Assembly (NCBI GenBank): GCA_043228905.1
Contig: JBHGNT010000004.1
Location: 17,980,001-18,044,000 of the forward strand
DNA: 64,000 nt
Reading direction: 5' to 3'
From: Azolla caroliniana
Taxonomy: Eukaryota > Plantae > Polypodiophyta
A program made the translations under genes and the position numbers. Numbering within the stretch: the stretch's first letter is position 1; the number at the start of each line of letters is the position of its first letter. The notes below the pieces were generated by a model. The model did no database searches. It saw nothing but the letters and a program-made list of their open reading frames with translations, and was not told the origin of the DNA. Positions 3,751 to 47,445 of the stretch are shown here, one piece after another.

Positions 3751-5721
3751 ATTGGTATTCAAGCCAAGGTTTTGTCTGAGTATGCTATGTGGTCACAACT
3801 TTGTCTGATCTTCCACATCAGAAAAGAATCATGGTCAAGGTTCCCAGTGTATAGTTTGAAACTGGCACTAGAAATATTTGATGGTACTAGCCATTTCGGC
3901 ATGTGACAAGAAGAGGTTCTAGACTCTCTTTTTCAATAGGGTCTTGATATTGCTATTGAAGAAGGTAAACCAAAAGAGGTAGAAGATAGAGATTGGAGCA
4001 TCATTAATCGGTTGACATGCGGAACAATTCGATTATGCCTGTCCCAAGAGCAGAAGTATGCTTTCAAGAATGAGACTTTTGCACACAAATTGTGGAGGGC
4101 ATTGGAGGGCAAATTTCAAAAAAAAAGTAGTCAAAATAAGCCCCTTATGAAGAAGAGGTTGTTTTGATTTGACTACAAACCAATTACTACTATGAATGAA
4201 CACATCACTATGTTTAATCAATTAGTAGCAGACCTGTTGAGTTTAGATGTTAAATTTGAGGATGAGGATCTAGCTTTGATGTTGTTATCATCTCTTCTCA
4301 ATGAATTTGAACATTTGGAACCTACATTACTTCATGAGAAAGAGAATGTGTCGTTAGATGCAATTCTTTTTGCTTTATATAGTCATGAATTGAGAAAGCA
4401 GGATAATATGATAACCAAATCAACGACATCAGAAGAAGCATTGGTGGCAAGAGATCATCAACAAAGCCATACTAAGGGGAGAAGAGGAAGGTTAAAATCA
4501 AAAGGCCGAGGCATTGCCAAAGATGAGTGTGCTTTCTGTCATAAGAAAGGGCATTGGAAGAAAGACTGTCTGCAATTGAAGAGGAAAGGGAAGAGTCCAC
4601 AAGATGCAAATGTTGCAGAATGCAGTGACACAGAATCATATACTTCCTTAGTAGTTATGCCTTTGATGTCAACACATCTAGATGAGTGGATTTTTTTTCA
4701 AGTTGTACCTATCATATGTGTCCTATTCAATCATGGTTGTTTGAATTTTAGGAAGTTGATGGTGGGGTTGTTTACATGGGTAATGATCATCCATGTAAAA
4801 CAACTGGGATAGGTTCGATCAAGTTGCGCAATCATGATGGAACCACAATAATTTTGAGGGATGTGCGGTACATGCCAAAGTTGAAGAAGAATCTCATCTC
4901 ATTAGGGGCTCTTGAATATAAGGGCCTAGTTGTGAGGATGCGAGATGGAGTTCTTAAGGAAACTTTAGGAGTATTGGTGATGTTAAAAGGTGTAAGGAAG
5001 AACAATTTGTACTATTACCAAGGTAAAATAGTGGTGGGGACAATGGCACTCATATGTGTGGGGACTTGCCAAGACTCCATCCATCAGAGGTAGGCATTAT
5101 TTTGTAACTTTTGTTGATGATTTATCCAGGAGAGTTTGGGTGTATACGATGAAGAACAAGAATGATGTGCTTGGAGTTTTCTTTAAGTGGAAAGATCAAG
5201 TGAAATCCATACAAGAAGAAAGATCAAAGTTCACCGAATAGACAATGGTAGAGAATACAAGGGTGATCCATTTTTGGAAGTATTCTTGTCAAAACCAAGA
5301 ATAAAAGATAGAGTGATGGAAGAAGGATATAAGAGAACACGAGAAGAAAGGAACGGAATGCTAAGAGAAGAATGGGTGTATTAAGATAGAGAAAGAAAGA
5401 GAATGGATACAAGATATGTAATGAGAGCTAAAGACTGGTGTTGATTTGAATTGATTTGAGAATACATGTATGCCCTTATTTATAGGTTCCTATAGAATAG
5501 CTTAGAGATTTCTATAATGTTGTAGACCTAGAATGTTCTAGGATATTCTAGAACATTATAGAATGATCTGGAGTTTTTACAGTAATCAATCTAATATAAA
5601 AAGTAGCTTTTATCTTCTCATATGACAATAAGCTATCTTAATGGTTGAGGTTTTCAATTATGGATTACAAGGTTCGAGGTTCAAGTTCGGGTGACGCCAT
5701 AATGGTCATGTGTTCATGACA

Positions 5722-6009
5722 CTATCCCTCCTTCGAGAACGCCGAGTGGAATTCAGCGTTAACATTGTTTGGGTAGTAGCGATTGAAGTCGTCGACAAGA
5801 GCTTGAGCATTACAAATGTTATCGACAAGTTCCCAAGTGCGATCACGCAAAGGATGGCCAAGCCAATCAACTAGATAATAAAGCTTATTGCGCACAATCT
5901 TAGAATCCAGAATAGCAGCTACCTCGTATTCAGGGCCGTCAACCAGTTGGATAGAAGGCAATGGTGGTACAACACGATTAGGAATTAAAGAGGTGCGGCA
6001 AGGTTCCAA
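5722..6009 (-). pseudogene. Integrase C-terminal chromodomain
   Basis: YEVAAILDSKIVRNKLYYLVDWLGHPLRDRTWE chromodomain pattern. Confidence 0.85.
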
Positions 6010-6569
6010 AAGAGAGCTATGAAAGATTGGGTGAGCCGCATATGTGCATGAAGGTTAAGACGAAATGTTGCATCATTAATCCGTGTTGTGATGACAAAAG
6101 GACCTAAGCATTGATAATCGAGCTTAGCACATGGGCGGGTAGTCTTGATGTGATGGCGAAGCAACCATACTCGATCACCAACCTTAAAAGGAGACTTAAG
6201 AAGATGCCGATCGGCATTGGTCTTATGGTGTGCTTGCGCTTTTTGAAGATGTGAAGATAACTCAAACTGGATTTGTTGTAGTCGGTGGAGGTTATGCGCC
6301 GGACTAGGGTTTCGTGACACCTCAGGGAGATCCAAGATACACCATCGAGGGTGGTTGTCAGTGTAGGCAAAGAAAGGTGTAACTTTGGTAGAAGAGTGTA
6401 CCGTGTTGTTGTATGCAAACTCGGCAAGATGTAAAATATTGTTGCAATCATCTTGTTGATAATTGATGAAGCATCGAAGATATTGCTCGAGTGTTTCATT
6501 TGTGTGCCTAGTTTGTCCGTCAATTTATGGATGATAAGCTGAAGAGAGTTTGTAGGAGATTTTGAGGCC

Positions 6570-8552
6570 AGCCTGTTACAGGCATGACCATATAATATCC
6601 CGTGGTGAGAATTTACCGTAGTATTCTTTACACTCTCGTTTAGTTCTTCACGAAATCAATTACTTATCTTGGAGATCTCATAACCGAACGAGGAGTTGAA
6701 ATTGATCCTTCTCGCATCGAGAAAATCAAGCTTTGGCCCACTCTTTGGAATATTCAAGAAGTTCGATCATTCCTTGGTTTTGTCGGGTTTTTGCGAAAAT
6801 CCCTTCGTAATTACTCTCAATTGACGATGCCGTTTACTGATCTTCTAAAAGGTCAAATGCGTAAGTCTACAAAACCTATTGTCTAGAATGCAACACTAAA
6901 CCTCGCCTTTAAGGAACTCAAGGACCTGGTGTGCAAGGCTCCTTCACTTCTTTTACCTGATCCTTCAAAACCTTTTGAGGTCGAAACCACGGCAGCCCAC
7001 AGGCTGCAAACTGTCACTATGTAAGAATGTACAAAACAGTGAGTTCATGGAGGCAACGACCTCGGACTCACAATCTTCGTCACAGGCGGCGGTTACAACA
7101 GAGGCAACGACCTCTTTCTCTCTCTCTCTCTCTGTACAACGTTACGTACTCTCTCTTCTTCTTGCACCAACAAGAAGAATGACAACAACAACAACAGTAT
7201 GTATATATCTCACTACATATTTGCCCTAAGTCATATTTATACTAATATGACTTTTCGGCTATTTACAAATATAGCCACAATGGGCCGGCACTGTTCTTCT
7301 CCCTTCCTATCCGGAGGGACCTGTCTCCCAACATCAATGTCGGTATACCATTCAAGAAAAGGAGTTATTTGCAATTATACATGCGTTCAAAACATGGCGC
7401 CATTATCTTTATGGAAATCGCTTTGTGGTAACTACGAACCACGAGTCCTTGAAAATTTTTTTTGACCAACAAGACCTGAAAGGTCATAAGGCATGATGGG
7501 CTGATCTCATCAGGACTTTGATTTTTCCATACAATATCGTAAAGGTTCCAGAACATTGTCGTTGATGCACTAAGTCGCATCCGTGAAGTTAACATGCTTG
7601 GCTTCACTAAAATAACATCAGATCTTTATGATCACCTTCGAGGAAAGTATCCCGATGACAGTTATTTTGCGAAATATTGAGCAAGAGTTGAGTTTGGAAC
7701 ATACACCACCACATCCTCGAAGGAATACTTCCACATTGCTAACGGTCTGCTCTACCGTAATGGGAAGGTTTGTGTTCCAAATTTGCCTGAGTTCAAAAAG
7801 AGAATTCTTTTTTAATGCCATGATGCACCCTTTGCGGGGCACCCTGGAATACATCATACACTAGTTCTCATCTCCACTCAATTCTATTGGCCTAAGATGC
7901 GCCCTGACATACATAGTTATGTGACTAAATGTCACCAATGTCAGGTTAACAAAATCGAGCGACTTAAGGCCGTAGGTCTTTTACATCCCTTGGACATTCC
8001 CAATAATAAGTGGGAAAGTATATCCATGGATTTTATTGTTAGCCTTCCTCGCACCCAAAAAGTTCATGATGCCATCTAGGTTGTGGTTGATAGACTAACT
8101 AAACTGGCCAGATTTATTGCTACTAAAACCACGATAACAGCTCCTGAATTGGCTTACCAATTCGCTAACGAGTTAAACGAGAGTGTAAAGAAGGGGAGGA
8201 TTACTTTTAATCCTCGGGTTTGAGACAACCCATTAGGCCAAGTGTGAACTTGCTTGGGGGCCTTGGGTATCGTTATAAATAAGAGGCCTAGCTACCCTTT
8301 CATCATCTTTTGACTACGTCGAGACTCTGTTTCGTGGTGGTTCAACTCTTGTAGCGAGCACGCCAGCACTAGGTACAACTCGACACCACGACGGTGGTAT
8401 GGGACGCCGATCGAGGCTTGAGTTCATCTCAATCCCTTTGCTCGGGGGTGGTCGGGTGGATCGGCACCCTTCTTTTTCTCTCTCCTTCCTATCTATCTAT
8501 CTATCATTCTTTTCTCCTTATCATACACTTACATTAGATCATATCTCTAATA
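6570..8552 (+). mobile_element. Mosaic insertion of a second Gypsy (RT-RNaseH-integrase fragments) inside the chromovirus integrase
   Basis: The host frame FWKHLCT|GLKISYKLSSAYHP is interrupted. The plus strand reads KPFEVET, KELFAIIHAFKTWRHYL, DALSR and CHQCQVNK...WESISMDF. A PPT-like aagaaggggagga at ~8188 is followed by an LTR-like stretch. Confidence 0.7.
6989..7290 (-). mobile_element. Solo-LTR-like insertion in the RNaseH fragment
   Basis: ~300 bp non-coding insert between KPFEVET and AVLL. The minus strand starts tgccggc and has a TATA (tataaata) and (GA)n. No clear TSD. Confidence 0.5.
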
Positions 8553-11322
8553 CTGTGCATAGGTGCTTCCAAAAGTGTGAGATAAATTGAGGACCTCGAT
8601 CGCTAATAATATAATTTGGGAGACAATGATGGCGAAACACCACACGCATAATGAGATTTGCAGTTTCTTCATTACAAATGGTCTTTACACACGATACAAA
8701 ATGTGTCATCTTTGTGAACCGATCCACTACTATTAAAATACTATCGAAGCCTTTGGAACGTGGCAAATCCGGAATGAAATGAAATAGATTGCCATGGCTT
8801 CTTGTGTGGTAATGGTTGTAGTAAGCCATAAGGATGATGCCTGGGTATTTTGGCGCGACAACAGGTGTCACATGTGTGAACATAATCTTCGACAAATTTT
8901 TGTACGTGAGGCCACTAAAACGAATGTTTCACCAGCTCAGTGGTCTTGGAAATACCAAAATTTCCAAGCATGGGGGCATCATGACAATGTTCTAATACTT
9001 GAAGTCGGGGTGATCCATCACGGACGTAAAGGAGGTTCTTGTAGAAGAGTGAGCCATCTTGCCACTTGAAGGCCTAATAATGTTGAGATGACCCTTTCAA
9101 TGTGGAGCAAGATGGACGGCTTGAACCAGTGTGGGCTAAGACATCCTTAGCGAAATCATCAAAGTGAAGTTGTTGCCGAATAGTGCCAAGAAGGCTAGAA
9201 TCAAGTGGCGTGGCATAAATTGTTGTTGCTTGTAGCTTTGATGGCCCGAGGAGAATTTGCTTTTGATTGTCAAAGACCAGATCTCCAAGTCGAAGATCTA
9301 GATACGAACGCCGAGACAAAGCATTTGCTTTCCCTTTTTGTTTTCCTGGCCGAAAAATGATCTTGAAATCAAAACACGTTAAAAATTGGGCCCATCGAGC
9401 CTGTCGTCTATTTAATGCTTGAGCTATTTGAAAATATGTGAGATTTTTGTGATCACTATAAATGATAATCTGATGAGGCGATCCTTCTAGAAAATGATGC
9501 TATTGCTCGAATGAGTCAACCACACCTAGTAACTCCTTGTCATGCACCCCATAGTTTATCTCCGAAACAATAAATTTTTTCGAGTGAAACACGACTGGAT
9601 GAGTCTACCCGTCCTCGCCTAGTTGCGATAGGATACTCCCCAATGCGAAGTCTGATGCATCCGCCTCAATAGTAAATGGCTTTTCAGGATCAATATGCGC
9701 TACGATAGGTGCTGATGTGAATGCATCTTTCAGCTGAGTAAAAGCCTTGTCCGCTTCGATACTTCAAAAAAATGCTTGATTTTTCTTGGTGAGTTGGGTG
9801 AGGTGCAACACAATGCTTGAATAATTACGTATGAATTTGCGATAGAAGTTCGCAAATCTGAGGAAACACCGGACGTCCCAAACTAATCATGGGAGTTTCC
9901 ATTCCAATATTGTTTGGACTTTTGCCAGATCCATGAAAATACCCTTGGATGAAATAGTGTATCCCAAAAATTTGACTTGTTTGCAATCAAAAGTGCATTT
10001 CTCAAGTTTGGCATAAAGACCATACTTTCTTAGGCGTTCAAGTACTTTCTGTACATGTATATCATGCTCCTCCTATGTTTTAGAGTAAATCAACATATCA
10101 TTTAGGTAGATGATGAGAAAGATATCCAAGAAATCCCGGAAAATGTCATTTGCCATATGTTGAAATACTATGGGTGCATTTGTGAGCCCGAAAGGCATGA
10201 TTGTATACTCGAAATGACCATACAGAGTACGAAATGCAGTTTTCCACTCATCTCCCAATCGAATTCGAACAAGATTATATGCACCCCTTAGATCAATTTT
10301 GGTAAAATGCTTTGCCTCACCAATGCGTTCTAAGAGACTGGAGATTAAAGGTAGAGCATACCTATTCCTTATGGTGACTTTATTTAAGCCTCGATAGTCC
10401 ACGACCAAACGAAGGGAGCCATCCTTTTTCTTCACAAAAAAGATAGGAGCACCAACTAGAGACTTTGAATGTTGAATAAACCCATGTGCAAGATTTTCCT
10501 CGATGTATTCTCAAAGAACCTCAAGCTCAGTGGGTGATAAATTGTAAATCAGACCCCACGGTAGCTCTTTTCCTAGTTGGAGATCAATAGGACAGTCATA
10601 CGACCGATGCTTTAGAAGAACACTAGCTTTGACTTTGTCGAAAACATTAGCATAGTCTTGATATTTTTTGGGAATTTGGATGTGTGAATTCCCTTGAGTG
10701 ACACTAGAAGGTGTCACTGATACTGCAAATAAGAAAAGGTCCTCCTTGCCTCCAACTTGTTGCAATTGTTGCAATGTGATGGTTGAAATTTGATGAAAAG
10801 GAGATGGTGCATTGGTAGAACTATATTCTTCAAGAGAATAATCTTGAGTTCGATCCTTGGCAATGATATTTTCTACTAAAGGGCACCAAATTTCTCGCTT
10901 CCTCCAATCAATTCTAGGGTTATGTAACTCGAACCATGGCAAACCGAGGACAATTGGATGCTCAGGACTACGGATTATGTTAAAGGAAACTACACATCCT
11001 AAATCACGTAAGAGTATGTGTATTGGCTCAGACTCCACGAATATCTTCCTAGAAGCTATGGGACGTCCATCAATCACTACTACGGAAACTGGACAAGGAA
11101 GTGTATGCAAGGATATTTGGTGTTTTTGGGCAAAATCTCTATCCATGAAACAAGAATTGGCTCTAGTATCTAAGAGGGCTTGGACTTGAAGTTGACAACT
11201 CGGTGTCCTAACTTGTACTTGGGCTGAGAAGACTATACTAACATGCTTGGAAGAAATGGAACCCACACTAAGTTGTACATATCTAGGGTTGTCCAACCAA
11301 ATGGCTCCTATTTTGGCCAGAC

Positions 11323-12306
11323 TTATTCGTTTGAGTCCTCTTCTAATTGGCTTAGGACTTCAAACTTATTGGACAAGGATAGATTATTCATAATATTAGA
11401 TTCACTAACTGCTCCTAAAATGTTGGACTCGTTTTTATTGTCATAGTGAATTTGATTTACCTGACGTCTCGGCCTACGGGAGCAATGAATAGCTATATGT
11501 CCTGGACCTCCGCAATATAAGCACAGACAGTTTGCACGACGTTGTTGCTTCTCTTCGTCCGACAACGGTCCTCGTTGTTGAGTAATATCGATCTCCATGG
11601 GTGTAGGATTATCCATTAGGATTGGACTACTCGTTGTTTGCCTTGGGGATGATTGCATCGTTACTGATGCATAAGTTGGTGTGAATCTTGATCTTGTTAT
11701 TTGTTGTTGTCTCTCACATCGACGATCAAAAAGGCGATTATCACACCGTATTGCTCGACTAATAGCTTCTGTAAGTGACCTTGGATCCTCGGGGAAGGTA
11801 AGAAGTAAGTCTTTCACATCACTACGAAGGCCTGAACGGAATTGCTCCATTAGGGCTTGTTCATCCCAAGGAATATCGCTTGCGATGAGACAGAAATTGG
11901 TTGCATATGTCGAAGCTGGCTGATCACCTTGACGTAGTGTAAGAATCTTGTTGATAGTTGTTCTTCCCCCATCGGTATCTCCGAAACAAGCCTTAAATTC
12001 TTTGATAAATTCCTCAGAATTATTCAGTAGAGGAGAATTTGTCTCTAGCAATGGAGCAAACCACGACAACACTATGCCAGTCAATAAGGTGCCCACTAAC
12101 CTAACTCGTAATGCATATGTCGGATAACATGTGGGATGCATTTGAATCACCAACCGTACTTGATTCAAGAAACCTCGGAAATGCGCCCTTGAACCATCAA
12201 ATTTAGCTGGGAGGCTGATTTTGGGTTCCTTGATAAGTCCTTGACCTTCGACCCTTTGTTGTTGTAACACTACGATTGTCGACTCTAATTGTTGAACCTG
12301 TCGCAT
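11323..12306 (-). pseudogene. Gypsy gag ORF (retrotransposon gag plus CCHC knuckle)
   Basis: PKISLPAKFDGSR..., PMEID, CLYCGGPGHIAIHC. Confidence 0.85.
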
Positions 12307-12506
12307 GAACTCCTCTTGTTGTTGCTGCTTCTCTATAGTAACCTTTTGTAGATCCTCAAGTAGACGTTGATTCCTCTACTTCAAGAGATGCGAACTTGGA
12401 TTTAAGATTCTCCATTTCTGCAACAAGGGTGAGATATTCTTTTGAGTTAATGGCGGTCATGGTTTCATGATGGTTACAAAGGAGGATGAGAGAGAGAGAG
12501 GGGGGG

Positions 12507-12518
12507 AATTCGAATCAA
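12507..12518 (-). promoter_or_regulatory. Putative self-priming site (replaces tRNA PBS) of the chromovirus
   Basis: Minus-strand ttgattcgaatt, 2 nt after the 5' LTR, is complementary to LTR 12675-12686. Confidence 0.7.
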
Positions 12519-14301
12519 ACTGTCAAAACCAAGAATAAAAGATAGAGTGATAGAAGAAGGATATAAGGGAACATGAGAAGAAAGGAATGAAATGCTAAGA
12601 GAAGAATGGGTGTATTAAGATAGAGAAAGAAAGAGAATGGATACAAGATATGTAATGAGAACTAAAGACTGGTGTTGATTCAAATTGATTTGAGAATGCA
12701 TGTATGCCCTTATTTATAGGTTCCTATAGAATAGCTTAGAGATTTCTATAATGTTCTAGACCTAGAATGTTCTAGGACATTCTAGAACATTATAGAATGA
12801 TCTAGAGTTTTTACAATAATCAATCTAATACAAAAAGTAGCTTTTATTCTATCATATGACAATAAGTTATCTTAATGGTTGAGGTTTTTAATTATGGATT
12901 ACAAGGTTCGAGCAGTGACGCCATAATGGTCATGTGTTCATGACAATGCCAAGATTGTGGCATAAATCATCATTTCACCATTAGAAGAACACCAGAATAG
13001 AATTGGGTGTTAGACCATAAGAACAAGACACTTGTGGAGAAAGTTTGTTGTATGTTGTCTAACACTGGATTAGGCAAAAACTTTTGGGTTGAGGCTATGA
13101 TGTATGCTCAACATCTCGTCAATTGTTTGCCATCATCTACTATAGGTGGCAAAACTCCATTATAGGTATGGTCTGGAAAACCTACAATTGATTATGATAC
13201 TTTGCATATTTTTGGTTCTACTACATATTATCATGTAACTTAATCAAAGTTGGATCCACGAGCAAAGAAGGCTCTTTTCATGGGCTTCAATGCTGGAGTG
13301 AAGGGTTATCGTTTTTGGTGTCTTGATGTAAAGAAGACGATTACAAATAGAGATGTTACCTTTGATGAATCTGCCATGTTGAACAAGGTAAATCTAGAAA
13401 AACCGGATTATACTCCGATACAAGTGGAGGGTACTTCGAAGCAGGTGAAGTTTGAGAGGATAGTGGTGACTCCAAGGCGAGGCACCACCAATGACTCTCC
13501 TATGGTAGAACAAGAGTCAAATGAGGAAGAGGTTCCGACCCAAGAACCTCTGCAGCAATCAGAACCAATTGCAATAAGAAGACAGAGACGAGTAATTTGG
13601 AAGCTTGCAGCTCGTTTTGCTGACATGGTAGCTTATACTTCTAGTTTGTGATGATAATGTTCCATCCACCTACCCAGAGGTCATTCGGAGCACAGAAAGT
13701 GGCAATTGGGCTAGTGTAATGGAAGAAGAGATGCAATCTCTTAAGAAGAACAAGACATGGAAGCTGACACAACTACCGAAAGGGAGAAAGGCAATTGGGT
13801 GCAAATGGGTATTTGCAAAGAAAGTAGGATTTCCGAGTAAAGAAGACATTCGCTACAAGGCAAGGTTGTAGCTAAAGGCTATGCACAAAAGGGGGGAATT
13901 GATTATAATGAGGTATTTTCTCCAGTTATAAACCATTCTTCCATTAGAATTTTGTTGGCCTTGGTAGTATACTTAAATTTGGAGCTAGCTCAACTTGATG
14001 TGAAGACCTTGTTCTTACATGGTGATTTGAAGGAGGAAATCTATATGATTTAACCAGAATGATACAAGGGTTGCTAGTAAAGAAGTCTCTGAGACAGTGG
14101 TACAAACGATTTGATAAGTTCATGAAGGGACAAAAGTACAGGAGAAGCAAATACGATCATTGTGTGTACTTGTGTAATCTTCAAGATGGTTTATACATCT
14201 AGTTACTCTTATATGTTGATGATATGTTGAATGTAGCAAAGAGTCAAGGTGAGATTGACAAGTTGAAGGCTCAAATGAGTAAAGAGTTCGAGATGAAGGA
14301 T

Positions 14302-21271: not shown

Positions 21272-24015
21272 TGTCATGGCGTGGCTCACCCAGAAGCGTC
21301 GCGTTGCGCAGACAGAAGATAGCGTGAAAGTGAGGAAGGAATCGTTGGGATTATGGACGGAAGAGAAGAAAGAGTAGAGATGGAGTAAATAAAGATCGAC
21401 AGGATATGGCAAGGTAGGATTTGTAAGAAATATGAGATTTGGAAAGATAAGATATAAAATGATATTTGAGAAAATTTAAGAAATTTATAATCATTATCAT
21501 GAAAGAGTTACAAAATGGTTGCGAGCGTCATTGGACCTTCGATTTTCATCTCACGAGGTAACCGCTCTTCCCTTCCTTGATAATAGACCATAATCTTCCC
21601 TTCAATCTTTCAAGGAGGATAAGACTCGAACCACTGCCTTTCCGTTGCGAGTTAAGGACCACAACCGCCAAGCTAGTTGTCCTCTAATCTTTTGAAGATA
21701 GGTCTCTCTCCCTCTTTGTCTATTATGATATATTATAAAATTCTCTCTTGATCCAATATAATTCGATTCAATCTTATTTCTTGATCTCCTTATGACTACA
21801 TCCCCTTCTCTTTTTATAGCAAAGGGATAGTCTTGCATGTGGTCCATGTGGGGCACATGCAGAGAGGCTCTTGCATGTGTGCTATATGGTGGACATGTAA
21901 TACATTACAATGTTTACACTATTAAATACACGTTCAAATAATAGAACACATAGATTTTTAATATGTTGTGAGTATTGGCTAAGTGGTAGTGATTGAGGCT
22001 TTCAAAGTTGAGGTTGTGGGTTTGAGTCCTCTCTTGCGCATGTAATACAATTCTTTTTCTTTCTTATTATAGCTACTATAATGTACTATAATTATTTATA
22101 TAGTTTATATATCATGAATGTTGGCTAATTGGTAACATGTGAGGTTCATAAGTTTGAGGTTCTTCTCTTGTCCTCATAATATAGTGTTTTAGTTTATTCA
22201 CTTATATAATGTATAATATTATATAAAACACTATCAAGATTCTTTTTATTTTAGTTATGCATTTATCTTATTGTAGACTTTTGATGTGAAGCTTTTATAC
22301 TTCACGACATCCACCCCCTCTAGACCTGCACATCCTCCGACATGTGCCACTATCTTTCTTCTTCATGTTGATCTATTGGTGGAGGTTCAAGCTCAAACCT
22401 TTTCTTAAATACTTTTATTCTCTTTCCCGCTACCACGTTTAGGATTAGTGTCCCATCCAATTCACAAAGCTTATATGTAAAGTTATCATATACTTTTTTC
22501 ACTATGTAAGGCCCAAACCATCTTTCAGCAAACTTGCGAACGGTGCTATGTTGATTATCTAAACTGCTATCATACACGAGCACCCAATCCCCCTCTTCTA
22601 TTTTCTTAGGTCGAATTTTGTGAGTTTTATCGAAACGAATTTTATTCTTTAGTCGAGCCTCCTTCAATCGTTGGGCTACTAATTCTATATCTTCAGGTCG
22701 ACGCTCTAATTGTTGAATTCGCAAAGCATGCAATTCTTCTCTGCTCACCTCTTCTCTCCATGGAATAGATATCCATGACATGTGGCAAGACATAGAGGCA
22801 TATGAGCGACATTCATGAAGTTGAAAGAAAAGTATTGGTGGCCACATATGTATAAAGATATAACAAAATTTCTGGAAACCTGTGAGATCTACCAGAGGTA
22901 TTCAACTATTCGGCATCAAGATGAGTTAAAACCAACATATTCATCATCAATGCATTATAAATGGATGGTCGATCTAGTGACAATGCCACTTGGGGAAGGT
23001 CAAATGCGATACTTAGTACTAGCAAGAGAAGACCTTACAAACCAAGTAGAAGGAAGACCACTACGATAGAAAACAACTGGAGCTGTATGTAAATATTTGT
23101 TAGAAGATAGAGGAGAACTTGACGCTAATGAAGCTAGAGAATTCTTCAGCCGGATAGGGATCAAATTATCACTTACAACTACGTATAATCCAGAAGCCAA
23201 TGGAAAGATTGAAAGAGGACATAGCCCAATAGTTAAGGCGATCATGAAAAGCTGTAAAGGTAAAATAAGAGATTGGCCACGCATGCTACCTCATGCACTA
23301 TGGGCGGATCAGACAACGCATAGTTCGGTAACATGATACATGCTAGCTGAATTGATACTTGGCCAAAAGCCCATCATGCCGGTAGAAGAATAAATTATGT
23401 CATGGATATCTATTCCATGGAGAGAAGAGGTGAGCAGAGAAGAATTGCGTGCTTTGCGAATTCAACAATTAGAGCGTCGACCTGAAGATATAGGATTAGC
23501 AACCCAACGATTGAAGGAGGCTCGACTAAAGAATAAAATTTGTTTTGATAAAACTCACAGAATTCGGCCTAAGAAAATAGAACAAGGGGATTGGGTGCTC
23601 ATGTATGATAGCAGTTTAGATAATCAACATAGCACCGTCCGCAAGTTTGCTGAAAGATGGTTTGGGCCTTACATAGTGAAAAAAGTATATGATAACTTTA
23701 CCTATAAGCTTTGTGAATTGGATGGGACACTAATCCTAAACATGGTAGCGGGAAAGAGGATAAAAGTATTTAAGAAAATGTTCGAGCTTGAACCTCCACC
23801 AATAGATCAACATGAAGAAGAAAGATAGTGGCACATGCCGGAGGATGTGCAAGTCTAGAGGGGGTGGATGTCGTGAAGTATGAAAGCTTCACATCAAAAG
23901 TCTACAATAAGATAAATACATAACTAAAATAAAAAGAATCTTGATGGTGTTTTATATAATAATATACATTATATAGGTGATATAAAGTAAAACACTATAT
24001 TATGAGGACAAGAGA
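21272..24015. mobile_element. Third Gypsy family: 1.04-kb 3' LTR (21272-22309, minus) plus integrase 3' end, with an inverted duplication
   Basis: tgtcatgg...ttcacgaca LTR with PPT agagggggtgga. Minus-strand integrase C-terminus at 22350-22781. Plus-strand integrase at 22784-23828, then PPT and a truncated LTR start at 23869-24015. Confidence 0.85.
21968..22040 (+). promoter_or_regulatory. tRNA-like Pol III A/B-box cassette inside an LTR
   Basis: tggctaagtgg (A box), ct-ttc-aa anticodon-loop-like segment, gtgggtttgagtcct (T-arm/B box). Confidence 0.55.
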
Positions 24016-34806: not shown

Positions 34807-34810
<4 letters not shown>

Positions 34811-36556: not shown

Positions 36557-38594
36557 GTTTGCTTGGTAATTTAGAATGCCAACTACGTTGTAAGATTTGA
36601 TTCCACCCATGATCAGATTTATGTATTTTCCATTCTTCTTCAACCTTAGATAATAGCCACCCAAGAGTCTGAACAAAGCAATGATACAAACGATTAGTAG
36701 TCACTTGTAACAACGACGTTTGACCCCGTAAATACCAATCAATCCACGGTTGCTCTCCTGTTTGATGAGGTAAAGGACCTTGCATCAATGCAATATTTTG
36801 TAATTGCTGCTAGATAAACCCATAATTAGGCGAGATGCGTAATAACTATCGCGTTTCAACAAACTCCAAAATGCTTTAAGATGGAGCCTCAACTATATCT
36901 CCCACCTCTTTGACTCCCAAACGAAACAAACGATTAAATTAAGAGCGCAATCTCACCTTTCCTAGCCAATATAATAACCGAAAAGGCACAAGTAACTCTT
37001 TTTGCAAAAATTACAATGCTCTCTACTAGATGATGGTTTCCATACACATAACAAGAGACTTGCTTCTTGCCATGAGGTAACCAAATGTTGAACATACGAA
37101 GAGCGCAGAATCCTAAGTGAAATACACCCATTTAGTAATTGCCACCATGAAGCCTTAATCATTGTCCTCCCATGTGTTAAACCCTTGTTCTCAATGAAAT
37201 ATTGAACAATAGATATCCATGGTTATGAGTTTGAACACATGTCTTGTAATAATGAAAATCTATGAACCATCATATGCATAGATAAGTTCAATATTCTAGC
37301 TCCCCCCAAGTGCTTAGGGGGTGCTAGATGATTCCCCGCAACCCATGTGATTCCCATCTTATCCCTCTTCTTCCACAACAAATATCGAAGACGTTGCAAA
37401 ACATAATGCAAAGCCTTCTTTCTCCATGGCAACAATGGTAAGTGATATAATATCATGGGTTCCATAATACATTGTACAACCTTCAAGCGTACATGAAATG
37501 GCCAAGATTGTGACTTCCAATACATGAACTTATCCCTCAACTTACTAGACATCCATTCAATCAATTGACCATTTGTAGCATTCATTCCTAATGGATAGCC
37601 CAAGTGTCCAAAAATAGAACCTTTCTTCACCACAAATCGTTGCCATCCTAAACATTCCAAATCCCTTTCAATACATGATATGAGACTAGACTTCCTCAAA
37701 TTGATATCTAATCTAGAATCCAGTGCAAATTGGTTCCATACAAGCATCCCCTTCTCAAGATTCTCTCGTGAGGCTTGTAAAAACATGAAAGAATCATCAA
37801 CCAAAGCTTGTGCTACTAGCTGCCCTCCAGATGGAAGGTGTAAACCCACAATGTCACCATTTGTTGCAAGCCTTGATAGCATCATTAACAAGGGATGAGC
37901 AAACAACAATGGGCTATGTGGGCATCCTTGACGAATGGAACTTGTGAGGCCAATATCTGATGTAACTCCCCCATTAAGCATTACTCAAGACATTGCATCT
38001 TTTCCTAATAAAAATATGAGGCGAGACATACAAGGTCCAATGCCCATTGTATGCATTAACCCAGAAACAAAGTGTCACAAACATGACAACAGTCGCGTCA
38101 AGATTTGAACTCTTGATCTCTTATATATAGTCAAGTGTTGTGTTCTAACCAACACGTCCAAATATATGGTCATGGTATTTTTATCTTAGTAAATTATTAG
38201 TAGATTATCTATTTCAAGTTCTAGGAGTTTTTAGAAAGTTCTAGAACTAGAAGGTTGTAGAGGGTTCTAGAATATTCTCCCGAATATTCTAATGCATGTA
38301 CTTCGACTCACAATATAAATACTTGTAACCTCCTTGGTCCCTTTCAAGGGATTCAACACCAGTCATTGACACGTCAATCTAGTATTCTCGTTTCGTCCCA
38401 TATTCTCTCCTTGATTTACATCTATGTCTTTATGCTCTTGTATTGTTCCTAGAGTCTTAAGTTCCTCATCTCGTCGCTCCCAACTTCTCGAGTTTCTATC
38501 CCCATCACGTCGAGTTCCACGTTTGTAACCTTATCGGTCGTAGCCTCATCATCTGTGCTTTGTCGTAGTCTAGCGTTGGTGTGTCTGTGACAGT

Positions 38595-38604
38595 TTGAAT
38601 CCCT
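38595..38604 (+). promoter_or_regulatory. Putative self-priming site of the non-autonomous LTR element
   Basis: ttgaatccct, 2 nt after the 5' LTR, is complementary to agggattcaa at 38347-38356. Confidence 0.7.
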
Positions 38605-38605
38605 C

Positions 38606-38651
38606 TATAAAGAATTGAGAAGGCAAGAGTGGTTGTAATGCAGCGGAAGAT

Positions 38652-38686
<35 letters not shown>

Positions 38687-41600
38687 TGAGTGAGAGAGAG
38701 AGAGAGAGAGAGACAGCTCTTAAGACAGAGATAGAAAAACTTTATATTAACCAAATTACATCAAAGCATAAGACATCCAACAACAACTAAGTTACAAGGG
38801 GTTGGTTTAAATACCAACTAAGCTATGGCAAGTCCCCTTTCTACTATTTACAAAACTAGCCTAGTATGTCCATGAGCTAGTATGAAACCTATCTATGGGC
38901 AGTTGAGTTCGATTCTCAACACGCCCCTTAGAACACAACTTCCATCTGTCAGAAAGTTGTTTCGGTCTTCGGAGTACTTCGATTTAAGGAATCGGATTCC
39001 GGCTTTATTGCTTTACGCTTCTTATTGTGTGTTGCGTAGTCTAGCCGTGTTGCGTACTCCCCCTCAAGCTCGGCAATTTAGATGTCGTGAGACCAAGGTC
39101 CGATGCAAATTGCCCGAGCTTGTCGATGCCTAGAGCTTTCGTGAAAGTATCAGCAACCTGCAGGTGCGTACTAATGTGTTGTAGGTCGATCTCTCCAGCC
39201 TGTACGCGCTCGCGGATGAAGTGGTAGTGGACCTCGATATGCTTAGTCCGCGCGTGGAATACGGGATTCCGCGCCAGGTAGATACTACTCATGTTGTCGT
39301 AGTATATGTGAATCGGATCCTTGATGGGTACGCCCAGATCCTTTAGTACGCGTTTGAGCCAGACGGCTTCGCATGTAGCAATTGCTACGCCCCTGTATTC
39401 GGCTTCCGTGCTCGACAATGCGACTGTCGGCTGCTTCTTACTACTCCAAGAGATCGCTCCGCTGCCAAGAGAGAAGAAGAATCCGGAGGTGGATCGTCTG
39501 TCCGCTTTATATCATGCCCAGTCCGCGTCCATAATGCCGTAGTCCATTGTCATACTAACATACTGAAGTATCCCCTTAACGCAGTCCAGATGAAGATTTC
39601 GCGGATTCTACATAAATTGGCTAAGTAGGCCAACCGAATAACTGAGGTCGGGTCGCGTAATGGTCAAATAGATCAAACTACCGATCAGTTGTCGATACTG
39701 AGTCAGCTCACTCTCAGCGGTTCCGGAATTGGCATCGATCTTGAGATTACGATCAAGAGGGATAGACACAGGCTTGCACTTGGTCATTCTGAACTTGTAG
39801 AGTAAGTTGAGATTGTAGTGTCGTTGAGAGATCATTATTCCGACTGGTGTCTGAATTACTTCAATACCTAGGAAGTAATGGAGCTCGTGTAAGTCTTTCA
39901 TTTCGAATCTGCCGGAAAGAAGTGATTTGACTTTGTTAATCTCGGCGAGATCCTTCCCTCCGATGACCAAATCATCCACGTACAGGATGATGATGATCAG
40001 GTTATCCGACTCATTTCGGATGTACAGAGAGGTGTCAGATTTTGACATCTGAAATCCGACTTGGTGAAGATATTGCATGATCTTCGAGTGCCAAGCACGC
40101 AGTGCTTGTTTGAGGTCGTAGAATGGCTTCTTGAGTTGGCATACGGCGAGCAAATGCTTACGCGATTCGAATTCGGGTGGTTGTATCATGTACACCTCTT
40201 CTTCTAACTCTCCTTGGAGGAAAGCGTTTTCCACGTCCATCTGGTGGAGGTGCCATCCCTTCGCTATGGCGAGTGCAATTATTGTCCGTATGGTTGTCAT
40301 CTTTGCCACCGGGGCAAAGGTTTCTTCGTAGTCTATGCCATGCGTTTGCGCGTAGCCTTTCGCAACGAGCCGTGCTTTGAAGCGATTTACGGATCCGTCG
40401 GCATTGTATTTTACTTTGTATATCCATCTGCATCCAATCGCTTTCTTGTTCGGGGGGAGAGGAACAAGATCCCATGTCTCGTTTTTGCATAAAGCTTCCA
40501 TCTCCTCATTCATTCTATCGACCCATCATGAATCCTTTGCGGCTTCGGAAACCATTTCCGGTTCCCGTACTGACGCTACTTTCATCATAAAAGTGTAGTG
40601 ATACGCCATGTACTCGTCATAGCCATAGCGGTTTACGGGGTTCTTCTCTCGGGTGGACCGGCGTAGCTTTTTGTTCGCGGATTCTAAAGCTTTCTTCACG
40701 CCGTCTATCCCGGTGTCAAGGCCTTCGAACTCACTATCAAGGGAGTGGATCGATTCAAATTCGAACTGATCTTCATATTCCCGCATTTTCGCCTTCCCTT
40801 TGTCCAGCTTCGGACTCGGCCGAGATGTGCTTTCATCACTCGGCGGCTCTAATGGCCCACTCAGCTGTGTCGTAATAGGGATGTCTTCTAACATCTGTGT
40901 GAGCCGATCCTCAGCTTCTATTTCTATTTCAGTGTCATCTGCATCGAGCGGGGTTGGAGTCGAAGTATTCACTGGTGCGTACCAAGATGCGTATTCGTCG
41001 AAGACTACGTCTCAATTTGTTCAAAACTTACGGGTAGATGGATTGTAGCATTTGTACCCCTTCTATTCGAGTGAGTATCCTAGGAGGATAAATTTCTCCA
41101 TCTTTGGGTCAAGCTTTTGCCGCGTATTGTCGAGAATATGTACGTAGGCGATAGAACCGAAAATACGAACATGTGACAAGTCCGGCTTCTTTCCAAAGAA
41201 TTTCTCATGCAGAGTTATATCGTGTACTCCCAAGGTTGCGCACTTGTTCATGAGATATACAGCCGTATTTGCCGCTTTTGCCCAATCAGGTTCTTGTCGT
41301 TCATCGTGGCTCGTGCGACTTCTACTACATGGCGATTTTTACGCTCTGCTACGTCGTTTTGCTGAGGCGTGTGTCGACACGAGAACTCTCGCCGGATTCC
41401 TTCTTTTCGGAGATATGCCGAAAATTCATCCGAAGACAGCGTATATGCCGACCCGTAGTTTTTTCGACTTCGGCCCTGAATGTCTGGAAGTGCCTGAACA
41501 CTTCACTCTTCTAATCGAAGACAGCGTATATGCCGACCCGTAGTTTTTTCGACTTCGGCCCTGAATGTCTGGAAGTGCCTGAACACTTCACTCTTCTAAT

Positions 41601-43510
41601 CGAAGACAGCGTATATGCCGACCCGTAGTTTTTTCGACTTCGGCCCTGAATGTCTGGAAGTGCCTAAACACTTCACTCTTCTGCTTCATCAGATAGATCC
41701 ATGTGTTCCTGGAGAAGTCGTCAATGAACGTGACATAGTATCGGCATCCACCGAATGTTGTTGTCTGGGCTGGTCCCCACACATCTCAATGTACAACATC
41801 CAGGATCCCTTTGCTCACATTTTGCTCCTTAGGGAATGGGTGATGACGGCGTTGCTTTCCGAACTGACATGCTTCGCATACGCTTGTAATCTCCTTTGCC
41901 ATAAAGTTCAAGAGTCCGATTACGACTCCTTTCGATTGCATGTTTTGTAGTTTCTGGAGATTAATGTGGCCGATTCTCTTGTGCCACAATTTTAAGTCGG
42001 TTTCGACTTTCTGGCCCTTTGCATACATGGCTGACTTTACCTCGCTTGATTCAAGGATGAACATACGACCTTCTCGTCGGTCGTGAGCTACAACTTGATC
42101 GCCTTTTTCGATGAAGCATCTGGCATTATTGAAGCGTACTTGCATTCCTTGTTCGACAATCTGGCCGACCGAGACCAAGTTTTTCATGATGGTGGGGACA
42201 TGCATCACATCCTTGAGGTAGGTTTGTTTGTCGTCGTTTCCGAATGGGATGTTCCCGATATGTTGTATGGGTTGTGTTGTGTCATCTCCTATTTCGACAT
42301 ATCCAGGACGTTCAAGCTTTCGAAGTTCCCGAAACCAATCTTCATGGGACGTCATGTGATTGGATGCTCCCGAATCGACAAACCATACGTTGTTCGGAGT
42401 GGAAGCGGTAGTTGACGCAAGTGCGGACATTGAGTGCGCTTCGTGCTTCATTATGAACATTCCGCTGTGGTCGTCGTAGTCGGAGTTCGTGGTGTAATTT
42501 GTTAGTTGTTGGCCTTGCTCACGCTTCTTCTTCCGACACTCCTCTTCGTAGTGGTCGGGTTTTCCGCAATACCCGCACTCAACTAGGTTCCTACGGTTCC
42601 TTGGTCCGGCGTGATGACTCCCCCTTCCACCGAACTCTCTGGGGCCGTTTCTGTCTACTTGCCTTTGGTGGGAGTTACGATGTTGATTGTGTCAACCTTG
42701 GCCGTATTGGCCTCTCCTGCTGCGACTGTGTCCTCTTCCTCCATCGAAGTTCGAATATAGCATCTGTCCTTTGTGTGCGTTGTTCCTTTGACGCACGTGA
42801 TTCTCTTCGACCAGCAATCACGATTGGAGATCAAAAAAGGAGGGAGGATTTTCTCTCGTGAGAACGGACGATCTTATTGCACCAAATCGCGGTGCTAAGC
42901 CACCAAGGCATATCTGCACCATTTCTTCATCGTCAATGCTAACATTGATCGATCCAAGGGCATCGCACAACTCCTTAATCTTTAAGGTGTAGTTGCCGAT
43001 TGACATGTCCCTTTGTTGAAGATTGTTCAGCTCTTGTCGAAGTTGGAGCTTTCGTGCGGCGGTATTGGCTGCAAAAATCTTCTTGAGGTTTTCCCACGCC
43101 TGCTTCGGCGTTTTTGCCTCTCAAATGTAGCCAAGCATATGATCATGAACGCATGATGCAAGGCAATACAACACACGGCTTGCGGCCTGCTCCCAAGCGG
43201 GATAGTCGGCGTGTGTTGGGTTGGGGTGTGATTCGTGAGCTCCTTCGATGTAGCTCCAGTAGCCTTGTCCGACAAGATATTGATGCATCTTGTATTCCCA
43301 AGATGCAAAGTTCGTTCTATCGAGCTTCTCGGTAGGAAGAGCGCTTCCCATTTGAGTATTCATGGTGATTTCTTCTCTGTCAATGGGCCAATTCTGTTGA
43401 TCGTCGGCGTGCAGCACAACACAGTCGAAAATGCTTGATCAAGCAACCACTCAATCTGATACCATGTAAAGAAATGAGGAGGCAAGAGTGGTTGTAATGC
43501 AGTGGAAGAT

Positions 43511-43553
<43 letters not shown>

Positions 43554-43569
43554 AAGATTGAGAGAGAGA

Positions 43570-43600
<31 letters not shown>

Positions 43601-43823
43601 AGAGAGAGAGAGAGAGAGATCTTAAGACAGAGATAGAAAAACCTTATATTAACCAAATTACATCAAAGCATAAGACATCCAACAACAACTAAGTTACAAG
43701 GGGTTGGTTTAAATACCAATTGAGCTAGGGCAAGTCCCCTTTCTACTATTTACAAAACTAGCCTGGTATGTCCATGAGCTAGTGTGAAACCTATCTATGG
43801 GAAGTTGAGTTCGATTCTCAACG
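38606..43823 (-). mobile_element. Ty1/Copia LTR retrotransposon nested in the non-autonomous element
   Basis: LTRs 38606-38921 and 43465-43823, TSD ccctc, PBS tggtatcaga (iMet) at 43455-43464. gag, protease WFVDSGAS, integrase, RT YVDD (39608-40513), RNase[13 protein letters not shown] (39041-39418). Confidence 0.93.
41431..41682 (+). repeat. Tandem triplication of an 85-bp integrase segment in Copia-2
   Basis: cgaagacagcgtatatgccgacccg starts at 41431, 41516 and 41601. Confidence 0.92.
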
Positions 43824-43849
43824 CCCTCCCAATTGGAAGCATCACTCGT

Positions 43850-44290
43850 CTTTGTCATCGCCCTTGCTTTTAGAGTTATCATCGTCACCGTCATCAATAT
43901 CCTTTTGTTTCTTATCTTCCTCGACATCTCTATCTCTTAGTTTCTTCCCATCATCGTCGTTGTCTTTTAGTTTCTTCTCATCCTCCACATATCTATCTCT
44001 GTGTTTCTTATCATCATCATCCCTATCTTTGCACTTCTTATCATCTTCCACATCCCTATCTCTGCATTTTTTGTCATTGTCATCCTTCTCCCGGTGTTTC
44101 CTACCGTTTTCATCTCTACCTATGTGTTTCTTATTATCTTCGTCCCTTTCTCTACGTTTCCTATCACCTTCATCCCTATCTTTGTGTTTTCTCTCATCCT
44201 TTGTATCTGTATATTTGTGTTTCGTCAGAACCTCAACATCTCGATCTCTATGTTTCTTATCCTCTTCATATCTGTCTCTGCTTCCATCAT
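43850..44290 (-). repeat. Degenerate ~30-bp repeat region encoding D/K/R-rich units (DDDKKHRDRD-like) on the minus strand
   Basis: Recurrent tcatcatccctatctctgtgtttctta-like units. ORF 43842-44051 (-). Confidence 0.75.
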
Positions 44291-44380
44291 TGCCTTCATT
44301 GCTTCGTCTTCGACATCATCATATTCAACCCTCTTGTTGTCATCATCGACACTACTTTGCCTAGCCTTCATTGTCGTCAA

Positions 44381-45385
44381 GTGTTCCAGTTCCCGGTGAA
44401 GACCGTGCAGGGTCGCTCACATCTGTTGGTGTTCGTGTCTCCGGTGAGGACCACACATGATCACTCACGCCCATTGGTGTTCGCGTCTTCGGTGAGGACT
44501 GTACATGGTCTCTCATGCTCGTTGGTATTCCAATTCCCGATGAGGACCATACATGGTCTCTCATGCTCATTGATGTTCCAATTCCTGATAAGGACCACAC
44601 ATGGCCGCTCATTCCCATTAGTGTTCATGTCTCTGGTGAGAGGACCGCACATGGTCACTCACGCCCGTTGGTGTTCATGTCTCCGGTGAGGACCGCACAT
44701 GGTCACTCATGCCCATTCGTGTTCGTTTCTCCGGTGAGGACCGCACAAGGTCGCCCATGCCCATTGGTGTTCGTGTCTCCAGTGAGGACCGTACATGGTC
44801 GCTCACACTCGTTGTTGTCCTAGTTCCCGGTGAGGACCGCACATGGTCGCTCACACCCGTTGGTGTCCCAGTTCCCGATGAGGTCCACATGGTCGCTCAC
44901 GCCCGTTGTGTTCCTGTCTTCGGTGAGGACCGTACATGGTCGCTCATGCTCATTGGTGTTCCAGTTCCCGGTGAGGACCACACATGGTCGCTCACTTCCG
45001 TTGGTGTTCATGTCTCCGGTGAGGACCGCACATGGTCGCTCACGTCCGTTGGTGTTCCTGTCTTCAGTGAGGACCACACATGGTCGCTCACTCATGTTGG
45101 TGTTCCAGTCTCCGGTGAGGACCTCACATGGTCTCTCATGCTCGTTGGTGTTCCAGTTCCCGGTGAGGACCATACATGGTCGCTCAAACTCACATTGGTG
45201 TTCCAGTCTCTGGTGAGGACCGAACATGGTCGCTCACGCTCACGTTGGTGTTCCAATATCCGGTGAGGACCGTACATGGTCGCTCACCCCCTTGGTGTTC
45301 TAGTCTCTGGTGAGGACCACACATGGTTGCTCGCGTTCACCCGTGCTCCTATTTCTGGTGAGGACTGCTCATGGTCACTCACTCC
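44381..45385 (+). repeat. 48-bp minisatellite, ~21 copies
   Basis: Consensus ggtgaggaccgcacatggtcgctcacgcccgttggtgttc(a/c)tgtctcc. Confidence 0.93.
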
Positions 45386-47445
45386 TCAACGTACTTTGGT
45401 TTTCTCTTTCAACTCACTCCTACTCCATGCTTTCGAAAAGGCGGCCATAAAGGGGAAGATAATGTCACAAACATGACAACAATCATGTCAAGATTTGAAC
45501 TCTTGACCTCTTATATATAGTCAAGTGTTGTGTTCTAACCAACACGTCCAAATATATAGTCATGTTATATATATCTTAGTATATTATTAGTAAATTAACT
45601 ATTTCAAGTTCTAGGAGTTTTTAGAAAGTTCTAGAACTAGAAGGTTGTAGAGGGTTCTAGAATATTCTCCCGAATATTCTAATGCATGTACTTCGACTCA
45701 CAGTATAAATACTTGTAACCTCCTTGGTCCCTTTCAAGGGATTCAACACCAGTCATTGACACATCAATCTAGTATTCTCGTTTCGCCCCATCTTCTCTCC
45801 TTGATTTACATCTATGTCTTTATGCTCTTGTATTGTTCCTAGAGTCTTAAGTTCCTCATCTCGTCACTCCCAACTTCCCGAGTTTCTATCCCCATCACGT
45901 CGAGTTCCACGTTTGTAACCTTATCGTTCGTAGCCTCGTCATTCGTGCTCCATTGTAGTCTAGGGTTGGTGTGTCCGTGACACAAAGGACCAATTAACAT
46001 GATCATAAGCTTTCTCCAAATCTAATTGCACCACAATCAATTCTTGATGAGTGTTTCGATCATAATCCATGGTCATTTGGAAATTCAACACATGATGCAA
46101 TATATTCCTACCTGCAATAAAACCATATTGGGTGGGATGTATCAACTTTGGCAAATACTTTTGTAATCTATTTGCCAAGACCTTTGTAAATATCTTATAC
46201 AACCCCCCCATCGAAGAAATAGGTCTCCATTGATGAAATGACTCGGGAGATGCCACCTTTGGAACTAATTTAATTAGACCAACCTTCCAAGCTTGAGGCA
46301 TACAACCAAAATCCCAAGAATGTTGAAACATCAAAGTAAAGGGCCCCTTTAAAATGTTCAAATATTGCTTAAAAACTTCATTTGTCAAGTCATCCCAACC
46401 AGGGCTCTTGCCACTATGAAGATGCCTTAAAACCGTGTCCACCTCATCTTTAGTGAAATCCGCATCCAATTCATGACTAATGAGTTCATGCACAATACAT
46501 CCAACCACATCATAAAACTCATGATGTGCTCTACTCACCTCATTTGTCATTAACAATTGTGGGTCAATCAACTTCTTAAAGTAATGAACACATATGTCAA
46601 TTATTATAGTAGGATCCACTATCAATTCATTCCCTTGCTTCACATGTACCACATTAGATTGAGCATAAGTAGGATGTAATGCTTGGAAAAACAAATGAGA
46701 TTGACATTGATTATCTATGAGCCCATCCTTTTTTCTTATAGAAATTCTGTGAAATTTTGTGAGTTTATATACATTTTGATTTAAAACAGAAACATGATGA
46801 TATCCCTTGAATCGCAACATGATAATTCCACAAATCTCCATTTCGTTTCTGTCAACTTGGCTATACACCCTAGGTTTGTAAAGGCCATAATATTTAATGA
46901 GCACTGGAGGGATAGACGAGACATGATTCTTATTTCCCAAGTTTGCCCCTTGTGATAATCTAAAAGGGGAAGATTTGATCCTGGAAATCGAGAAAACAAA
47001 GACAAGGGATGAATTGGATGGCCATCACAATGCTCCCGAGAGTGGTGGCACACCGATAGGTGGACAAGACGGACGGACGGACGAACGGACGAAATGTGAA
47101 GGGTCCGCAGCCGAGAGGCAAGATTCCTCAAACCTTAAAAGAGAGTTGAGTTATGTAATAAGCGATCCATGCATGCATTCCACAAACCTTAAAAAGAGAA
47201 AAAAACTCACCAAAGTTTTATGTATTACATATACACACTCACTGCATTTCATGCATATAACTAATAACTAACTCTCTCTCTCTCTCTCTCTCTCTCGTTT
47301 TGATAAATGAACCCATTTCCCTCCCCTGCTCTGTCCTGCTCTGTCCTGCTCTCCCTCTGCTCTGTTACAATATTAGGGTTTTATTGGTATATCTATATAG
47401 GTGTTTAACAACAATATTAAACTTTTCTACTGCTAGATTAGGTTA

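What the first reader, a model, noticed from the sequence alone, without database searches (positions are those of the whole stretch)
5634..45551. Three different Gypsy-type LTR families each carry an antisense tRNA-like (Pol III A-box/B-box) cassette in U3
Seen in the chromovirus LTRs: 5634-5699 reads tatcttaatgg...cgaggttcaagttcgggtgacgcca, and the copy at 12866-12923 has part of the T-arm deleted. Seen in the third-family LTR: 21968-22040 reads tggctaagtgg...ctttcaa...gtgggtttgagtcct, with a second partial copy at 22121-22163. Seen in the non-autonomous element LTRs: 38091-38161 and 45481-45551 read, on the minus strand, tggacgtgttgg...ggtcaagagttcaaatcttga. In all three the cassette is in U3, upstream of the Pol II TATA, antisense to the element and pointing out of the LTR, even though the primary sequences differ a lot. 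Established: Cassandra TRIMs carry 5S-derived Pol III promoters in their LTRs, and TFIIIC-bound B boxes act as chromatin barriers. Inference: these lineages may keep a tRNA-mimic as an insulator or anti-silencing element, or as a small-RNA source. For the two self-priming families it cannot be a PBS remnant. I do not know of a description of this, but cannot verify novelty.
Basis: partly seen in the sequence, partly recalled or inferred. Interest (0 to 1): 0.82.

Follow-up and report, generated by a model that had tools for sequence, protein, structure and literature searches.

The report
Backward tRNA promoter in fern LTRs
A high-copy family of fern jumping genes carries a decayed, backward-facing tRNA look-alike at the outer edge of its end repeats, which likely serves as a docking site for the RNA polymerase III factor TFIIIC, while in a second, unrelated family a similar piece sits in only a minority of copies and is likely a passenger.

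Summary
The motifs are real, tRNA-like, antisense and in U3, but they are not three equal cases. The host is a fern. In chromovirus E1 the cassette is family-wide: contig depth over it equals that at the LTR ends in four organism labels, and most depth has a perfect 11/11 B box. Non-autonomous E3 is a sister LTR family with a weaker cassette at the same place, so E1 and E3 probably count once. In E2 the two cassettes sit in a ~315-nt module with 2-13% of the LTR-tip depth, and the window copy has a damaged B box. None folds as a tRNA. Box conservation beyond flanking U3 is not shown, and no RNA or binding data exist. tRNA-derived LTR sequence is known (Helenus), but there it is sense and in tiny non-coding elements. 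Best reading: a retained outward TFIIIC/Pol III promoter in the E1/E3 lineage (0.42), against passenger (0.33). I saw no earlier scan note on this; notes on other genomes describe sense Helenus elements.

The parts
5287..5721 (-). E1 3' LTR (self-priming chromovirus); PPT abuts at 5722; TATA at 5477-5484
5634..5644 (+). E1 A-box-like motif, antisense to the element; identical in 4 of 4 copies aligned
5651..5654 (+). T4 run inside the E1 cassette (4 of 4 copies; T5 in the 5' LTR), a possible early Pol III stop
5678..5688 (+). E1 B box, 44 nt after the A-box start; 10/11 in this copy, with C at 5687 (11/11) in 95, 98, 81 and 78% of depth in four runs
5689..5721 (+). Acceptor-like remnant ending in CCA at 5699, then the 22-nt U3 tip with a small inverted repeat
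   Evidence: sequence
12521..12945 (-). E1 5' LTR, 95.5% identical to the 3' LTR; A box at 12868-12878, B box lost by a 10-nt deletion; self-priming PBS at 12501-12520
10511..12375 (-). E1 gag and protease frames; RT, RNase H, integrase and chromodomain follow, broken by stops and frameshifts
21272..22309 (-). E2 LTR (Gypsy, no chromodomain seen; left end inferred); PPT at 22310; TATA at 21812-21819
21916..22234 (.). Variable U3 module holding both E2 antisense cassettes; skipped by other contigs; flanked by a 7-nt direct repeat that may be chance
21969..22041 (+). E2 cassette 1 in full tRNA register (A box 21976, B box 22019-22029 with T in place of the invariant C56); T5 run at 22054
22122..22170 (+). 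E2 cassette 2, a diverged tandem unit; B box incomplete here, with extra letters in another contig
38073..38592 (+). E3 5' LTR (non-autonomous, self-priming, sister of the E1 LTR); TATA at 38314
38101..38160 (-). E3 cassette, 5' LTR: weak A box, B-box core intact, spacing 49
45463..45982 (+). E3 3' LTR, 94.8% identical to the 5' LTR
45491..45550 (-). E3 cassette, 3' LTR; its variable-loop/T-arm 21-mer occurs in real tRNA genes

Best explanation
The self-priming chromovirus lineage E1/E3 carries a decayed tRNA-like cassette, antisense and about 30 bases inside the U3 tip, that was likely captured once and likely persists as an outward-facing RNA polymerase III promoter whose main job would be to bind TFIIIC next to the element's own Pol II promoter. 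Shown: position, strand, A/B spacing of 44 (E1) and 49 (E3), loss of cloverleaf pairing, family-wide presence and a perfect majority B box in E1, and a Pol II TATA about 150 nt inward. Inferred: TFIIIC binds the boxes; that binding keeps the U3 edge open or limits chromatin spreading from the flank; little long RNA is made from E1 because a T4 run lies 18 nt into the cassette. E2's cassettes are a separate, subfamily-restricted capture and are probably passengers.
For: Cassette depth over LTR-tip depth is 0.80, 1.19, 1.13 and 0.93 in four runs of four organism labels, and 2.7-9.8 times the mid-U3 depth. The B box is 11/11 in 78-98% of depth. The A box is identical in 4 of 4 aligned copies. E1 and E3 LTRs have diverged until blastn finds only short shared motifs, yet both keep a box pair ending 28-32 nt from the tip, with the B-box core intact, while stems are lost. 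Boxes kept while structure decays is the pattern reported for Helenus (PMC10886601). In 0 of 10 distant chromoviruses with an automatic PPT call was there such a pair at the tip (best 6-8 mismatches), so it is not a general LTR-end feature. TFIIIC acts on chromatin at sites without Pol III (PMC11346459).
Against: Substitutions between L001 and L002 are 5 of 55 in the cassette, 10 of 127 in mid-U3 and 21 of 144 in R/U5, so there is no clear extra constraint. Listed variant sites are 2 of 55 against 20 of 143 in mid-U3 (p=0.04) but 14 of 204 in R/U5/TATA (p=0.53), from a table showing 40 of 78 rows. The 5' LTR of the window's E1 copy has lost its B box. In the two more distant organism labels the cassette has only 0.23-0.30 of the TATA-block depth, so many related LTRs lack an alignable version. 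No CAA lies at -10 to -3 in E1, E2 or E3 (against PMC13578239). DNA methylation impairs TFIIIC binding and silences tRNA genes inside repeats in Arabidopsis. The common origin of the E1 and E3 cassettes is inferred; their 5' halves do not align.
Confidence: 0.42

Rival explanations
1. Passenger: a tRNA copy or SINE head was captured into U3 and multiplied with successful master elements, with no present function. Capture could come from a mis-priming tRNA copied by plus-strand synthesis from the nearby PPT, which would give this strand and position (inferred).
For: No extra constraint in the independent pair. E2 module at 2% (organism A) and 13% (organism D) of tip depth, with at least six contigs skipping 314-356 nt. 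E2's C56-to-T change is what decay of a methylated CG gives (inference). The E1 5' LTR lost the B box. On the element strand E1 reads tip, then TGG, then anti-tRNA, with no poly-A tail and no flanking repeat of 7 nt or more outside the boxes. Box pairs also occur in sense orientation and outside delimited LTRs.
Against: The B-box core survives in both E1 and E3 although the rest of their LTRs barely aligns. The majority B box is perfect in four organism labels.
Confidence: 0.33
2. The cassette is transcribed by Pol III into antisense RNA. From the 3' LTR this would run over the PPT into the integrase end and feed small RNAs, or it would damp the neighbouring Pol II promoter and so limit the element's own activity.
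For: Outward antisense direction and an intact B box in E1. E2 cassette 1 has a T5 run just behind it, like a tRNA gene, and E3 has its first T4 at +112 or +147. No T5 occurs within 600 nt in three of four E1 copies if T4 is read through.
Against: T4 at +18 in 4 of 4 E1 copies would cut most transcripts short if it terminates (the strength of T4 in ferns is unknown). No CAA at the usual place.
Confidence: 0.13
3. The cassette works at the RNA level: in the genomic RNA it is complementary to the D and T arms of a host tRNA and docks that tRNA in U3 near the PPT, as the 3' part of the Ty3 bipartite primer site does, helping strand transfer or dimerisation.
For: Same strand and region as in Ty3, where the TpsiC and D arms of the primer pair with U3 (PMC5371799, passages). 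E1's version begins with TGG on the element strand.
Against: E1 and E3 are self-priming (10-nt complement between PBS and the R start in L001 and E3), so no tRNA is held at the 5' end. T-stem letters vary between E1 copies while the box letters stay, which fits protein recognition better than pairing with one tRNA. No single isotype stands out (Asn 11, Met 10 of 28 tRNA hits).
Confidence: 0.09
4. Chance resemblance of AT-rich LTR sequence to two short boxes.
For: No Rfam or ARAGORN hit. E3 reaches only p 0.02-0.075. The nested Copia tip fails the 5'-half test (p 0.9).
Against: E1 and E2 p<0.001. E2 is the top hit of a profile from 18 unselected tRNAs at 13.4 bits, against a maximum of 9.6 in 20 shuffled windows. 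Motif hits in viral contigs fall in tRNA genes in 28 of 42 (E1) and 2 of 4 (E3) cases.
Confidence: 0.03

Closest known systems
Helenus TRIMs / TRIMp3 (Kojima 2024, PMC10886601; read parts 1-4 of 6, passages, and supplement passages)
   Same: tRNA-derived sequence inside LTRs, conserved around boxes A and B, mostly not a functional tRNA; one plant family (Selaginella). The paper also notes that 'not a few' Repbase LTRs hold tRNA-like parts, but it analysed only elements under 1 kb.
   Different: In the consensus LTRs I saw the tRNA-like part is sense and near the LTR's 3' end, in 311-1263-bp non-coding, tRNA-primed elements. Here it is antisense at the U3 tip of a gag-pol-coding, self-priming element that keeps a Pol II TATA.
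Cassandra TRIMs (PMC10853983 and PMC10886601, passages)
   Same: Pol III promoter sequence held in plant LTRs, ferns included.
   Different: 5S-derived, drives the element's own transcript and replaces the Pol II promoter; non-coding.
Ty3 bipartite primer binding site (PMC5371799, passages)
   Same: U3 sequence complementary to the TpsiC and D arms of a tRNA, so it reads as antisense B and A boxes.
   Different: Ty3 is tRNA-primed and the U3 match is to its primer; E1 and E3 self-prime, and their cassette has whole-tRNA spacing.
tDNA insulators and extra-TFIIIC (ETC) sites (PMC11346459, PMC5911963, passages)
   Same: A B box that could bind TFIIIC without making a tRNA.
   Different: Described in yeast and animals at host loci; I saw no report of one carried in a plant LTR, and binding is not shown here.
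Tcn1 chromoviruses (PMC6317226, PMC2864245, passages)
   Same: E1 has a chromodomain and a self-priming PBS.
   Different: Reported from mosses, Selaginella and fungi; no tRNA-like U3 is mentioned in the passages read. Placement of E1 was not tested on a tree.
HIV-1 U3-R tRNA-Lys3-like sequence (recalled; search found no paper)
   Same: A tRNA-complementary stretch in U3, proposed to aid minus-strand transfer.
   Different: Retrovirus primed by that same tRNA; recalled only, not checked.

Membership tests
Helenus / TRIMp3 | tRNA-derived A and B boxes inside the LTR | tested here: met
   (strong for E1 and E2, weaker for E3)
Helenus / TRIMp3 | Short (about 0.3-1.3 kb) and non-coding | tested here: not met
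   E1 spans 7.66 kb with gag-pol; E3 is about 2.7 kb without the nested Copia
Helenus / TRIMp3 | tRNA-like part on the element's strand, able to drive its transcript | tested here: not met
   antisense in E1, E2 and E3; sense in the Helenus consensus LTRs seen
Helenus / TRIMp3 | tRNA-complementary PBS | tested here: not met
   E1 and E3 PBS complement their own R start; E2's PBS is not in the window
Cassandra | 5S rRNA-derived sequence in the LTR | tested here: not met
   no 5S hit in Rfam scans
tRNA gene | Cloverleaf with acceptor and anticodon stems | tested here: not met
tRNA-derived SINE insertion | Own target-site duplication and tail | tested here: inconclusive
   none for E1 or E3; one 7-nt repeat around the E2 module, of a size expected by chance
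tRNA-derived SINE insertion | Dispersed independently of the LTR | tested here: not met
   E1 cassette/tip depth 0.8-1.2, no large excess; not tested for E3
Ty3-type bipartite PBS | U3 sequence complementary to tRNA T and D arms | tested here: met
   strand and position
Ty3-type bipartite PBS | The same tRNA primes at the 5' PBS | tested here: not met
   self-priming in E1 and E3; not testable for E2
Ty3-type bipartite PBS | Long exact complement to one host tRNA | not testable with these tools
   no fern tRNA set available (no genome held)
TFIIIC insulator / ETC site | Intact B box | tested here: met
   E1 majority 11/11; E3 core intact; not met in the window's E2 copy
TFIIIC insulator / ETC site | TFIIIC occupancy and barrier activity | not testable with these tools
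   no ChIP or chromatin data
Plant type-2 Pol III promoter | CAA at -10 to -3 | tested here: not met
   E1 CAA at -1 to +2; none in E2 or E3 (rule from PMC13578239)
Tcn1 chromovirus (E1) | Chromodomain after integrase | tested here: met
   Pfam Chromo E 3e-14 in family copy L001
Tcn1 chromovirus (E1) | Self-priming PBS | tested here: met
   10-nt complement in L001 and E3; 6-7 nt in the decayed window E1 copies
Tcn1 chromovirus (E1) | Phylogenetic placement in the Tcn1 clade | not tested
   no named reference sequences at hand; relatives at 66-90% were unnamed metagenome proteins

The most novel reading that the evidence does not exclude
Fern LTR retrotransposons of several lineages repeatedly capture tRNA heads into U3 and use them as portable, outward-facing TFIIIC barriers that shield their Pol II promoter from silencing. 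This would be a Pol III-factor-based anti-silencing device in coding plant retrotransposons, distinct from Cassandra and Helenus, where the Pol III promoter makes the element's RNA.
Probability: 0.2. Interest if true: 0.82.

Novelty: new variant of a known kind. Interest (0 to 1): 0.5.

Why it matters
If the E1/E3 boxes bind TFIIIC, thousands of LTRs (a rough reading of depth, not a copy count) would scatter Pol III-factor sites through a fern genome. That would give a plant test of tDNA-type insulation, with natural controls in the same family: copies with and without the B box, and E2 copies with zero, one or two cassettes. It would also extend small-RNA-gene capture by LTR elements beyond tiny non-coding TRIMs, to coding elements and to the opposite strand. 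If they are passengers, they still record a capture route and can mislead tRNA and SINE annotation in ferns.

Tried and rejected
No whole genome is held, so no genome-wide family alignment was made. ARAGORN and Rfam found no tRNA. A blastn of the L002 cassette against phages gave only chance hits. No RNA holder was listed; the one guessed-RNA run laid gave 0 contigs on E2. Neither says anything about expression.

Viral contigs gave no relative of E1 gag and one distant chromovirus for RT. The E2 motif scan fell in tRNA genes in 113 of 120 loci, but only 2 loci had the window's own letters, the rest coming from a degenerate position I allowed, so I give it little weight. The profile built from all 115 tRNAs is circular for the T arm and was not used as evidence.

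Nested Copia as a fourth case: box pair p 0.004-0.09 and a T-arm-like hairpin, but the 5' half is not tRNA-like (p 0.9) and E1, E2 and E3 tips also form hairpins, so it is left as doubtful. Self-targeting to Pol III starts, as Ty3 and Tj1 do (PMC5911963), was considered: E1 sits in a Copia integrase, E3 in a LINE RT and the nested Copia at E3's PBS, so 0 of 3 insertion sites support it. A shared source for the E1 and E2 cassettes was not supported by blastn. L001 and L002 were found by an exact match to the tip 30-mer, so identity at the tip was not counted.

Literature searches showed no description of antisense tRNA-like U3 cassettes in coding plant LTR elements. The library lacks most subscription papers and Repbase entries, and I read only passages of the Helenus supplement.


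Full report
Setting. The window is from a fern: its PI4-kinase is 64-68% identical to Adiantum and Ceratopteris proteins, and the best seed-plant hits are about 51% or lower. No whole genome is held. Self-comparison, Pfam and the ends define the elements. E1 is a minus-strand Gypsy with gag-pol, LTRs 5287-5721 and 12521-12945 (95.5% identical), inserted in a Copia integrase. A family copy has a chromodomain, and the PBS complements the R start, as in Tcn1/Tf1 elements (PMC6317226, passages). E3 is a plus-strand element with no Gypsy gag-pol found, LTRs 38073-38592 and 45463-45982, TSD CAAAG, self-priming PBS, inserted in a LINE, with a Copia nested at its PBS. E2 is one minus-strand LTR (~21272-22309) behind an integrase end with no chromodomain seen.

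Noticed in passing
window 38857-38921 and 43759-43823 (+): The nested Copia (LTRs 38606-38921 and 43465-43823, TSD CCCTC, inserted 13 nt into E3's PBS region) has an antisense 6-bp hairpin with a T-loop-like heptamer at its U3 tip and an A-like box 49 nt before it; the 5' half is not tRNA-like.
   Followed up: partly
window 21622-21675 (-): Sense A/B pair at spacing 43 in R/U5 of the E2 LTR, with about 3-4 times the depth of the antisense cassettes in run X1; the 5' half is not clearly tRNA-like.
   Followed up: partly
window 17443-17497 (-): Another box pair (3 mismatches; 5' half p 0.01-0.02; T4 at +80) in LTR-like DNA upstream of a plus-strand Gypsy gag; TATA-like sites on both strands leave its LTR orientation unresolved.
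   Followed up: partly
window 49886-49943 (-): tRNA-like relic with an intact B-box core, apparently in an intron of a host gene; possibly an old SINE head.
   Followed up: no
window 5287-12945; L001, L002: A high-copy self-priming chromovirus with a chromodomain in a fern; the papers read list Tcn1 for mosses, Selaginella and fungi. Unnamed metagenome relatives at 66-90% exist. Not placed on a tree.
   Followed up: partly
window 6574-8557: About 2 kb present in the window's E1 integrase but absent from L002.
   Followed up: no
window 43824-45420: E3's interior holds 30-33-nt and 48-nt tandem repeats and a short minus-strand reading frame at 43842-44315 over the first repeat array.
   Followed up: no
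window 22161-22781 and 23397-24018: Inverted duplication (96%) of E2's integrase end, PPT and first 150 nt of U3, breaking off at the edge of cassette 2.
   Followed up: no
window 15748-16205: The host Copia's 3' LTR is followed by an inverted copy of itself, forming a 460-nt palindrome; this LTR family has no box pair at its tip.
   Followed up: partly
L171-L211: Eukaryotic Gypsy elements sit as contigs inside many bacterial and archaeal genome records, most likely as binning contamination.
   Followed up: no
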